DNA of 27,901 nt from a virus (Duplodnaviria > Heunggongvirae > Uroviricota > Caudoviricetes), in IMG/VR virus record IMGVR_UViG_3300001765_000297; one strand, given 5' to 3'. Every line of letters begins with the position of its first letter. The first letter of the stretch is position 1. The translations under genes were made by a program, and so were the position numbers. The notes below the pieces were generated by a model. That model was given only the letters and a program-made list of their open reading frames with translations, had not been told where the DNA came from and searched no databases. Of the stretch, positions 4,010 to 4,082 are shown piece after piece.

Positions 4010-4082
4010 CCCACCGTGGCTGAGTGGTTAAGGCGTTGGACTCTAAATCCAATTTGTGCGGGTTCGATTCCTGTCGGTGGGT
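4010..4082 (+). tRNA. Amber suppressor tRNA (anticodon CUA)
   Basis: Acceptor CCCACCG/CGGTGGG; D arm GCTGAGTGGTTAAGGC; anticodon stem TTGGA/TCCAA with loop CT-CTA-AA (CTA at 4043-4045); 5-nt variable loop; T arm GCGGG-TTCGATT-CCTGT; U73; CCA not encoded. Confidence 0.92.

What the first reader, a model, noticed from the sequence alone, without database searches (positions are those of the whole stretch)
4010..4082. Amber suppressor tRNA with unusual identity elements
Seen: canonical cloverleaf with loop CUCUAAA (one change from the tRNA-Tyr loop CUGUAAA), C1:G72, short variable loop, U73, no encoded CCA. Known: bacterial tRNA-Tyr has G1:C72, A73 and a long variable arm; C1:G72 with a short arm is the archaeal/eukaryal Tyr pattern; U73 typifies Cys/Gly; gut-phage amber suppressors usually insert Gln. 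Inference: the charged amino acid is unclear and may need a phage-encoded synthetase; this may be a natural orthogonal suppressor.
Basis: partly seen in the sequence, partly recalled or inferred. Interest (0 to 1): 0.8.

Follow-up and report, generated by a model that had tools for sequence, protein, structure and literature searches.

The report
Phage amber suppressor tRNA, odd acceptor
A large uncultured phage carries a real stop-codon-reading (amber suppressor) tRNA that reads deliberate TAG stops in neighbouring genes; its amino-acid-specifying end differs from all 25 related suppressors found here, so the inserted residue is unknown, with cysteine the best guess.

Summary
Window 4010-4082(+) is a canonical tRNA (Rfam 61 bits) with anticodon CUA, loop CUCUAAA, C1:G72, a 5-nt variable loop, U73 and no encoded CCA. 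Contigs from two other studies reproduce it exactly.

It is not a gut-phage recoding tRNA. The window uses the standard code. The tRNA sits in one operon with two probable targets:
- a PTH2-like gene with TAG at codon 10, found in all 25 related loci; the one relative with a UUA tRNA has TAA there;
- an in-frame gene junction AAT-TAG-ATG, TAG in 12 of 14 junctions against 12% of stops overall.

Across 26 distinct suppressors in this slot, only the anticodon loop is shared: N73 is A12/U8/G6, and only this window has C1:G72. A near-identical core (56 of 58 positions) carries a different acceptor end elsewhere, so the acceptor end was replaced in this lineage.

Identity stays unresolved. Published rules best fit CysRS (U73, C3:G70, A36), about 0.4; Gln about 0.2. 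The Tyr/orthogonal reading fails: Tyr needs A73 everywhere, and eight synthetase families are absent from five near-complete relatives.

The scan noted the tRNA/PTH2 pairing before, on this same window; I re-tested it. Real, a new variant of a known kind, moderately interesting.

The parts
3265..3293 (+). Phage-type promoter motif TGTAAC-N16-CGTATAA in front of the operon that contains the tRNA
   Evidence: 4 exact matches in the window against 0 expected in 100 shuffles; this one lies 16 nt upstream of ORF 3309. Function is inferred.
3309..3599 (+). ORF A (96 aa, unknown function), ending ...N-TAG at 3597-3599
   Evidence: It runs in frame into ORF B if TAG is read. The junction is conserved in relatives.
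3597..3599 (+). Junction TAG (AAC-TAG-ATG), probable second target of the suppressor; readthrough would give an A-B fusion of 186 aa
   Evidence: 12 of 14 abutting in-frame junctions use TAG and 2 use TAA. TAG is 12% of 382 stops in these phages; binomial p about 7e-10, lineages not independent. Readthrough itself is inferred.
3600..3869 (+). ORF B (89 aa, MKDFELLKRT..., unknown function), conserved just upstream of the suppressor in relatives
   Evidence: tblastn finds homologs at 57-79% identity in 21 related loci with distinct junction contexts.
4010..4082 (+). Amber suppressor tRNA(CUA): C1:G72, C3:G70, A4:U69, U73, 5-nt variable loop, CCA not encoded
4043..4045 (+). Anticodon CTA inside loop CUCUAAA. 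The A36-A37-A38 context is that of tRNAs reading U-initial codons.
   Evidence: The loop is shared by 21 of the 26 distinct suppressors.
4098..4637 (+). Small serine recombinase (resolvase) between the tRNA and the PTH2-like gene; seen here but in none of the relatives whose gene content was examined
   Evidence: PF00239, 103 bits. In L006 only about 115 nt separate tRNA and PTH2-like gene, and the genes between them in L039, L040, L042 and L046 show no resolvase domain. The other relatives' spacers were not annotated.
4685..5035 (+). PTH2-like (peptidyl-tRNA-hydrolase-like) gene with in-frame TAG at 4712-4714 (codon 10); main target of the suppressor
   Evidence: PF01981, 20 bits, below Pfam's cut-off; 178 homologs; all 25 related loci have ATG, 1-18 sense codons, a stop, then [VI]KLVT...; the stop is TAA only where the tRNA anticodon is UUA (L005).
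5815..5829 (+). Terminator-like hairpin followed by a T run, probable end of the operon
   Evidence: 5 terminator-like sites in 3600-6000 against 0.8 expected.

Best explanation
This is a working phage-encoded amber suppressor tRNA. It is transcribed inside a protein-coding operon, cut out by host RNase P and a 3' processing enzyme, given CCA, and charged by a host aminoacyl-tRNA synthetase. Its job is to read a few deliberately placed TAG codons in its own operon:
- the TAG at codon 10 of the PTH2-like gene, which has no usable start after the stop (the next codon is GTT);
- probably the TAG that separates ORF A from ORF B in the same frame.

Both TAGs lie in linker or N-terminal positions, so which residue goes in matters little. 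This would explain why relatives fill the same slot with tRNAs that share only the CUCUAAA loop and carry A73, G73 or U73.

In this lineage the acceptor end was rebuilt on an otherwise conserved body, to C1:G72, C3:G70, A4:U69 and U73. Under published bacterial identity rules this combination best fits cysteinyl-tRNA synthetase, through U73 (the major determinant), C3:G70 and A36. C1:G72 removes the G1:C72 needed by the other two U73-reading enzymes (GlyRS, ThrRS) and is the opposite of the weak 1:72 pair that favours GlnRS.

Shown: the tRNA, its conservation with its target, the covariation of stop codon and anticodon, and the acceptor-end replacement. Inferred: processing, charging by a host enzyme, readthrough at the junction, and Cys as the residue (about 0.4 on its own).
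For: - tRNA real and reproduced.
- Standard code. TAG is 2 of 36 stops in the window and 12% overall. No other convincing in-frame TAG in about 500 kb of related DNA.
- Pairing with the PTH2-like gene: 23 of 25 related loci have a stop-reading tRNA upstream on the same strand, and the other two have under 350 bp of upstream sequence. All have ATG, a few codons, an in-frame stop, then [VI]KLVT. L005 has a UUA tRNA and TAA.
- Junction TAG is enriched, 12 of 14 against 12%.
- Heterogeneous identity ends: 26 distinct suppressors with N73 A12/U8/G6. The closest PTH2 relatives carry a different tRNA body. L050/53/56 carry two suppressors, one G73 and one U73.
- Acceptor replacement: L050 core is 0.97 identical but 5 of 7 pairs plus N73 differ. 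L051 core is 0.92, with pairs 1, 3, 4 and N73 different, all compensated. A co-occurring strain in run X1 has the same core with GCUCCUG...GAGC-A.
- No phage synthetase in relatives.
- Cys reading: identity table and the minihelix result in PMC9976931. E. coli tRNA-Cys(CUA) is still charged by endogenous CysRS (PMC13449415). All 9 annotated nearest phage tRNAs by BLAST are tRNA-Cys. 74 of 118 cellular tRNAs sharing the D-arm/T-loop signature are tRNA-Cys. In the related phages U73 is essentially limited to Cys, Gly and Thr.
Against: - No expression or charging data; no RNA run was listed.
- For Cys specifically: G2:C71 is C2:G71 here; G34 and C35, both major CysRS determinants, are lost; all five related-phage tRNA-Cys and all the cellular tRNA-Cys sequences inspected have G1:C72.
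- Core similarity does not separate Cys (mean 0.68), His (0.67) and Gln (0.68). Nearest-neighbour tests against 200 phage tRNAs give no consistent isotype.
- The best acceptor-end match is tRNA-Thr, 11/15, not Cys.
- Same-body relatives with A73 or G73 cannot be Cys acceptors, so the body says little.
- The identity rules come from E. coli and a few model species. The host is unknown; Bacteroidota is only suggested by earlier scan notes.
- The junction-TAG enrichment could reflect shared ancestry or a stop-start coupling signal.
Confidence: 0.55

Rival explanations
1. Glutamine-inserting suppressor. Host GlnRS charges it mainly through C34 and U35, as with many E. coli amber suppressors and as in TAG-to-Gln recoded phages.
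For: The CUA anticodon shares C34 and U35 with tRNA-Gln(CUG). Amber suppressors derived from tRNA-Trp, fMet, Ser and Asn are charged with Gln in E. coli (PMC9976931). G10 is present. Same-body relatives with G1:U72 and A73 (L006, L019, L026, L052) do look GlnRS-friendly, because the related phages' tRNA-Gln have a weak 1:72 pair and mostly A73.
Against: This window has the strongest possible 1:72 pair (C:G), U73, and C2:G71/C3:G70 in place of G2:C71/G3:C70. Phage tRNA-Gln are U1:A72 in 9 of 10, with A73 or G73. Acceptor-end similarity to Gln is at most 4/15. The apparent 'Q' at the TAG position in database homologs is TAG translated under code 15 and is not evidence.
Confidence: 0.2
2. Another residue, or mixed charging. 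The tRNA is a poor, promiscuous substrate charged by LysRS (U35), ThrRS or GlyRS (U73, C2:G71, Thr-like pairs 2-6), or by several enzymes, because the targets tolerate any residue.
For: The identity ends in this slot drift between A73, G73 and U73. The TAG sits before the fold of the PTH2-like domain, which begins at [VI]KLVT. The best acceptor-end match is tRNA-Thr at 11/15, sharing pairs 2-6 and U73. Amber suppressors with U35 often insert Lys (PMC9976931).
Against: LysRS needs A73. ThrRS and GlyRS need G1:C72 and anticodon bases (G35/U36, C35/C36) that are absent here (PMC9976931, Table 1). The fully compensated remodelling of three pairs plus N73 on a conserved core looks selected, not like drift.
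Confidence: 0.2
3. One reading: a Tyr-derived, naturally orthogonal suppressor (C1:G72, short arm) that host enzymes do not charge and that needs a phage-encoded archaeal/eukaryal-type synthetase.
For: C1:G72 with a short variable loop is the archaeal/eukaryal Tyr pattern. The loop is one change from CUGUAAA. The anticodon stem resembles that of a related phage's tRNA-Tyr (GUGGA/UCCAU against UUGGA/UCCAA). The window's own full genome could not be searched.
Against: A73 is a Tyr determinant in Bacteria, Eukarya and Archaea (PMC9976931, Table 1); this tRNA has U73. No TyrRS/TrpRS family (PF00579) or any of seven other synthetase families is found in five 91-100% complete relatives, and none is in the window. 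The 25 other suppressors in this slot have G1, so C1:G72 is not a family trait. The loop is equally one change from Trp.
Confidence: 0.03
4. Not a decoding tRNA: a tRNA-shaped element that serves as a processing signal in the operon, as a recombination site for the adjacent resolvase cassette, or as a decoy, and is not aminoacylated.
For: A resolvase gene starts 15 nt after the tRNA. The block 3866-5029 is absent at this site in about 84%-identical relatives. The window also holds tRNA-like elements with defective anticodon arms at 17652-17887.
Against: The cloverleaf is intact with all tertiary-interaction bases, and compensatory changes occur in all four stems. The tRNA's anticodon and the target gene's stop codon change together, UUA with TAA. 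The PTH2-like gene has no start codon after the stop. Relatives keep the tRNA without a resolvase.
Confidence: 0.05

Closest known systems
Suppressor tRNA(CUA) genes of standard-code jumbo phages, for example Xanthomonas phage XacN1 (PMC5852040)
   Same: A large phage with dozens of tRNA genes, the standard genetic code, one or more CUA suppressor tRNAs and a peptidyl-tRNA hydrolase gene in the genome.
   Different: In XacN1 no target gene could be identified. Here the targets sit beside the tRNA, and the stop codon and anticodon change together. This tRNA's acceptor end (C1:G72, U73) is unlike its relatives'.
Suppressor tRNAs of stop-codon-recoded phages (code 15, TAG to Gln; crAss-like and Lak-type phages; PMC10607447, PMC13037316)
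   Same: A phage-encoded tRNA with a CUA anticodon that competes with release factor 1 for UAG.
   Different: Those genomes have in-frame TAG in many genes, mostly late ones. Here TAG is an ordinary minority stop (12%), and only one or two operon-local TAGs need reading. A Gln identity is not supported by the acceptor end.
Engineered E. coli tRNA-Cys(CUA) amber suppressor (PMC13449415; identity rules in PMC9976931)
   Same: Class I tRNA with U73, C3:G70, A36-A37-A38 and a CUA anticodon. The E. coli version is still charged by endogenous CysRS despite the changed anticodon.
   Different: This tRNA has C1:G72 and C2:G71 instead of G1:C72 and G2:C71, and G15:U48 instead of the E. coli G15:G48 pair. 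Its relatives with the same body have A73 or G73. Charging with Cys is untested.
Archaeal/eukaryal-type tRNA-Tyr(CUA) used as an orthogonal suppressor (M. jannaschii pair)
   Same: C1:G72, short variable loop, CUA anticodon, CUCUAAA loop.
   Different: That tRNA needs A73 and its own TyrRS. Here position 73 is U, and no synthetase gene was found in the window or in relatives.

Membership tests
tRNA (Rfam RF00005) | Cloverleaf with conserved U8, A14, G18-G19, T-loop UUCGAUU and a 7-nt anticodon loop with U33; score above the gathering threshold | tested here: met
   61.3 bits against a 29-bit cut-off, full-length match. ARAGORN call. Alifold on 11 relatives recovers the cloverleaf with 11 compensated pairs. 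Single-sequence MFE folding does not give the cloverleaf (z -1.33), which is common for tRNAs.
Amber suppressor tRNA | Anticodon CUA in a normal anticodon loop | tested here: met
   C34-U35-A36 at 4043-4045 in loop CUCUAAA; unchanged in independent contigs.
Amber suppressor tRNA | An in-frame UAG that must be read to make a protein | tested here: met
   The PTH2-like gene has TAG at codon 10 and GTT after it. The layout is conserved in 25 of 25 related loci, and TAA pairs with a UUA tRNA in L005. Readthrough itself has not been shown experimentally.
Amber suppressor tRNA | It is expressed and aminoacylated | not testable with these tools
   No RNA run was listed, and only contigs were available.
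Bacterial tRNA-Tyr | A73, long variable arm, G34/U35 | tested here: not met
   U73 and a 5-nt variable loop. Related phages' tRNA-Tyr: A73 in 8 of 8 and variable arms of 12-15 nt. Rules from PMC9976931.
Archaeal/eukaryal tRNA-Tyr | C1:G72 together with A73 | tested here: not met
   C1:G72 is present but position 73 is U. A73 is listed as a determinant in all three domains.
Bacterial tRNA-Cys | U73 (major determinant), G2:C71, C3:G70, anticodon G34-C35-A36 | tested here: inconclusive
   Met: U73, C3:G70, A36. Not met: G2:C71 (C2:G71 here), G34, C35. The D-arm/T-loop signature is commonest in cellular tRNA-Cys, 74 of 118. The nearest phage tRNAs by BLAST are tRNA-Cys. I do not file it as a tRNA-Cys; I propose only that CysRS is the likeliest enzyme to charge it.
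Bacterial tRNA-Gln | Weak 1:72 pair (U1:A72), G73 or A73, G2:C71, G3:C70, G10, U35 | tested here: not met
   C1:G72, U73, C2:G71 and C3:G70; only G10 and U35 fit.
tRNA-Pyl (ARAGORN's label) | Short D-loop, 3-nt variable loop, 6-bp anticodon stem, G73 (from my own knowledge of tRNA-Pyl) | tested here: not met
   Normal 8-nt D-loop with G18-G19, 5-nt variable loop, 5-bp anticodon stem, U73. The label is ARAGORN's default name for a CUA anticodon.
Code-15 (TAG-recoded) phage | Many genes interrupted by in-frame TAG; TAG not used as a stop | tested here: not met
   ORFs are intact under code 11, and reading TAG joins almost nothing. TAG ends 12% of ORFs. No further in-frame TAG in about 500 kb of related DNA.

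The most novel reading that the evidence does not exclude
A family of natural phage suppressor tRNAs in which amino-acid identity is unconstrained and has been switched repeatedly (A73, G73, U73; several bodies) while the gene slot and the stop-codon targets stay fixed. This window would hold a selected, fully compensated acceptor-end transplant (C1:G72, C3:G70, A4:U69, U73) that narrows charging to one host enzyme, probably CysRS, by removing the determinants of GlyRS, ThrRS and GlnRS. That would be a natural example of the acceptor-stem engineering used to make orthogonal suppressors.
Probability: 0.3. Interest if true: 0.7.

Novelty: new variant of a known kind. Interest (0 to 1): 0.55.

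Why it matters
Phage suppressor tRNAs are known mainly from genomes that recode TAG throughout, where the inserted residue (Gln) can be inferred from alignments. Here the suppressor serves a standard-code phage as a local switch for one or two genes, and evolution has changed its identity end freely.

This gives a natural series of 26 suppressors with the same anticodon loop but different acceptor ends. The series could be used to test how bacterial synthetases choose amber suppressors, and to look for suppressors charged by only one host enzyme. It also offers an answer to why standard-code jumbo phages such as XacN1 carry suppressor tRNAs with no obvious targets: the targets may be stops placed a few codons after the start, which gene callers skip.

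If the tRNA proves to be an ordinary promiscuous suppressor, the finding comes down to a sequence curiosity inside a module already noted by this scan.

Tried and rejected
- **Residue from homologs.** Database homologs of the PTH2-like protein show Q where this window has TAG. The DNA shows those Qs are TAG translated under code 15 ('with_TAG=Q'), so they are not evidence for Gln.
- **Other in-frame TAGs with sense-codon homologs.** 63 candidates in the held loci, 17 with spanning alignments. On inspection these were antisense or off-frame translations, variable positions, or a TnpB-like insertion junction in L006. No residue could be inferred.
- **Nearest-neighbour isotype assignment.** Tested against about 200 anticodon-labelled phage tRNAs, with and without the variable region. 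No consistent isotype: Phe, Trp, Tyr, Asn, Gln and Glu all score 0.72-0.81. Core identity to cellular Cys, His and Gln is equal.
- **Exact-pattern scan for the anticodon arm in viral contigs:** 0 hits. Megablast of 5.7 kb against 50,697 phage records: no match.
- **Whole genome:** not held, so the window's own genome could not be searched for synthetases or other tRNAs.
- **Single-sequence MFE fold:** does not give the cloverleaf, z -1.33. Not informative for a tRNA.
- **Sigma-70 promoter scan:** 15 sites against 11.8 expected. Not informative.
- **Sequencing runs:** no RNA holder listed. All runs laid were contigs, so transcript ends, expression and rare variants could not be read.
- **Mini-ORF with TAG at 5340-5381:** no conserved counterpart in relatives. 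Left out of the model.
- **Terminase-like 559-aa protein** as a probe for relatives: one weak locus only.

Full report
**1. The observation**

ARAGORN finds a tRNA at 4010-4083(+) with anticodon cta. Its 'Pyl' label is only its name for that anticodon. Rfam's tRNA model matches 4010-4082 end to end at 61.3 bits, E 3.3e-11.

Read directly from the sequence:
- acceptor stem CCCACCG/CGGUGGG (C1:G72, C2:G71, C3:G70, A4:U69);
- U8, G9;
- a 3-bp D stem plus a G13:A22 mismatch;
- anticodon stem UUGGA/UCCAA and loop CUCUAAA (anticodon at 4043-4045);
- variable loop UUUGU;
- T arm GCGGG-UUCGAUU-CCUGU;
- U73, then CAAAAT, so CCA is not encoded.

Contigs from two other studies cover the tRNA with no differences (X2 record 9, X3 record 16). 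These are contigs, not raw reads.

**2. Context**

The window is about 32% G+C. Its ORFs are intact under the standard code, and reading TAG as sense joins almost nothing. TAG ends 2 of 36 ORFs here and 12% of 382 ORFs across related loci.

Genes identified in the window:
- an L7/L12 C-terminal-domain protein;
- a resolvase at 4098-4637;
- a weak PTH2 match at 4685-5035;
- a dNMP kinase, a metallophosphatase, a GMP-reductase-like protein and a DUF2227 protein.

There is no aminoacyl-tRNA synthetase. No whole genome is held. Relatives are 299-365 kb phage genomes with 50-59 tRNAs each, four of them 100% complete and one (G001) 91% complete with 6 tRNA matches. The DNA occurs in microbial-mat metagenomes. 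A phage-type promoter motif, taken as a lead from an earlier scan note, has 4 matches against 0 expected. One lies at 3265-3293, and a terminator-like hairpin lies at 5815-5829. The tRNA therefore appears to be transcribed with the protein genes 3309-5801.

**3. What the tRNA reads**

The PTH2-like protein has 178 homologs. I fetched 25 related viral loci with it.
- 23 have a stop-reading tRNA upstream on the same strand. The other two have under 350 bp of upstream sequence.
- In all 25, and in the window, the gene reads ATG, 1-18 sense codons, an in-frame stop, then [VI]KLVT. The codon after the stop (GTT, GTA, ATT, ATA) is not a normal start.
- In L005 the tRNA anticodon is UUA and the stop is TAA. 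Everywhere else the pair is CUA and TAG.

This covariation is the strongest evidence that the tRNA decodes this stop. An earlier scan report made the same pairing claim on this window; the result above is my own test of it.

A second probable target lies just upstream. ORF A (3309-3599) ends ...N-TAG, and ORF B starts at the next codon in the same frame. Among 14 relatives with this abutting arrangement, 12 use TAG and 2 use TAA, against a 12% background (binomial p about 7e-10, lineages not independent). Readthrough would give an A-B fusion. This step is inferred.

**4. Which amino acid?**

Comparative coding gives no answer. The 'Q' at the TAG position in database homologs is TAG translated under code 15. 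A scan of about 500 kb of related DNA found no other real in-frame TAG.

I therefore compared the tRNA with 193 anticodon-labelled tRNAs from four related phages:
- U73 occurs in Cys (4 of 5), Gly (9 of 11) and Thr (10 of 10), all with G1:C72, plus one Arg and one Ser tRNA.
- C1:G72 occurs in Pro, Asp and Leu, with single cases in Glu and Ser, all with A73 or G73.
- Tyr has A73 and a 12-15 nt arm in 8 of 8, and G1:C72 in 7 of 8.
- Gln is U1:A72 with A73 or G73.
- Trp has G73.

The window's C1:G72 + U73 combination fits none of these. Nearest-neighbour scoring with the anticodon masked gives no consistent isotype.

**5. The slot is conserved but the identity end is not**

Across all loci there are 26 distinct suppressors. 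The discriminator is A in 12, U in 8 and G in 6 (L009-11 re-registered by one base). Position 1 is G in 25 of them, and only the window has C1:G72. Other points:
- Phages whose PTH2-like proteins are 83-88% identical to the window's carry a different tRNA body.
- L050/53/56 carry two suppressors, one with G73 and one with U73.
- Pattern scans found ten distinct tRNAs, the window's included, with the window's own body type, plus L013.
- L050 is identical at 56 of 58 core positions, yet differs at 5 of 7 acceptor pairs and at N73.
- L051 (core 0.92) differs at pairs 1, 3 and 4 and at N73, with every change compensated.
- A co-occurring strain in run X1 has the same core with a GCUCCUG...GAGC-A end.
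- RNAalifold on the eleven sequences recovers the cloverleaf, with 11 of 21 pairs compensated and none broken.

The window's acceptor end is therefore a lineage-specific replacement on a conserved, functional tRNA.

**6. Best reading of the new end**

Published determinants (PMC9976931, Table 1):

| Isotype | Determinants |
|---|---|
| Cys (bacteria) | U73, G2:C71, C3:G70, G34, C35, A36 |
| Gly (bacteria) | U73, G1:C72, C2:G71, G3:C70, C35, C36 |
| Thr (bacteria) | G1:C72, C2:G71, G4:C69, G5:C68, G34, G35, U36 |
| Tyr | A73 in all domains |
| Lys (bacteria) | A73, U34, U35, U36 |
| Gln | favoured by a weak 1:72 pair (from the paper's text; its Table 1 row was not read) |

U73 alone gives Cys identity to minihelices. 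The window tRNA has U73, C3:G70 and A36. Two of these (U73, C3:G70) are among the positions changed relative to its relatives. C1:G72 removes a determinant of both other U73 enzymes and disfavours GlnRS.

Further support:
- E. coli tRNA-Cys(CUA) is still charged by endogenous CysRS (PMC13449415).
- The nine annotated nearest phage tRNAs by BLAST are all tRNA-Cys.
- 74 of 118 cellular tRNAs with the same D-arm/T-loop signature are tRNA-Cys and 39 are His (truncated scan).

Against the Cys reading:
- C2:G71 is present in place of G2:C71.
- G34 and C35 are lost.
- No natural tRNA-Cys seen here has C1:G72.
- Core similarity does not separate Cys from His or Gln.
- The best acceptor-stem match is tRNA-Thr, 11/15.
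- The rules come from model organisms, and the host is unknown.

I put Cys at about 0.4, Gln at about 0.2, another residue or mixed charging at about 0.2 to 0.3, and Tyr or an orthogonal pair at about 0.03.

**7. Phage synthetase?**

Eight synthetase catalytic-domain families (PF00749, PF00579, PF01406, PF00152, PF00587, PF00133, PF00750, PF01409) have no match in five 91-100% complete relatives, while all 14 control genomes score. This argues for charging by a host enzyme. It says nothing direct about the unsequenced remainder of this phage.

**8. Comparison with the known, and verdict**

Standard-code jumbo phage XacN1 has two CUA suppressors with no identified targets, and a peptidyl-tRNA hydrolase (PMC5852040). 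Recoded phages use CUA suppressors genome-wide (PMC13037316). This case is a phage amber suppressor of a known general kind. What sets it apart is its use as a local gate and its unusual, lineage-specific acceptor end.

The Tyr, orthogonal-pair and phage-synthetase ideas are not supported. Novelty: new variant of a known kind. Interest: 0.55.

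Noticed in passing
window 3597-3602 and related loci (L008, L016, L019, L024, L026, L007, L040, L046, L052, L055, L056): Two conserved small genes abut in the same frame with the junction AAT-TAG-ATG in 12 of 14 cases (TAA in L006 and L042), against 12% TAG among all stops. This may be a programmed readthrough fusion driven by the neighbouring suppressor.
   Followed up: partly
window 3866-5029: About 84%-identical relatives in runs X2, X3 and X4 join 3865 directly to 5030, with 'TTAAATA' between. The tRNA + resolvase + PTH2-like block is therefore an insertion/deletion cassette at this site. 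A resolvase was seen only in this window, not in L006, L039, L040, L042 or L046, the relatives whose spacer genes were examined.
   Followed up: partly
L029-L038 (records G002-G005): Each related large phage carries extra versions of normally short-armed tRNAs (Cys, Trp, Gln, Glu, His, Pro, Asn, Val and others) with 12-26 nt variable arms, often closed by a GAAA loop. They also carry tRNA-Leu genes with short variable loops. Their function and charging are unexplained.
   Followed up: no
L050, L053, L056: These metagenome contigs carry two different CUA suppressors, one of the window's body type with G73 and one GGGAGUA... type with U73.
   Followed up: no
L042:2093-2166 and L043:148-221: A suppressor with loop CCCUAAA, that is C33 in place of the near-universal U33.
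   Followed up: no
window 17652-17723 and 17816-17887 (- strand): Two tRNA-like elements pass Rfam's tRNA threshold (46 and 44 bits) but have aberrant anticodon arms. ARAGORN calls only the first, as Ser-gga.
   Followed up: no
window 933-1304; also L039:6867-7241 and L046:344-754: A phage gene with a ribosomal protein L7/L12 C-terminal domain (PF00542, 70 bits), conserved a few kb upstream of the suppressor in relatives.
   Followed up: no
L039:4399-4794: A free-standing YqeY/GatB-like domain gene (PF09424) lies within the tRNA gene cluster of a close relative. From my own knowledge, such domains bind tRNA and assist GlnRS in Deinococcus.
   Followed up: no
L006:1-330: A TnpB-like (zinc-finger CPxCG...NCGH) ORF is inserted into the homolog of window gene 2848-3258.
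   Followed up: no
window 5340-5381: A mini-ORF, ATG ATT ATG AAA GAA ACA TAG ATA CAC ACC AGA CCA CCA TAA, with an internal TAG lies upstream of gene 5466-5801. No conserved counterpart was seen in relatives.
   Followed up: partly
protein database homologs P0021, P0027, P0033, P0067 and others: Public gene calls for this family translate the in-frame TAG as Q (code 15) even though these phages otherwise use the standard code. This can mislead residue inference.
   Followed up: yes
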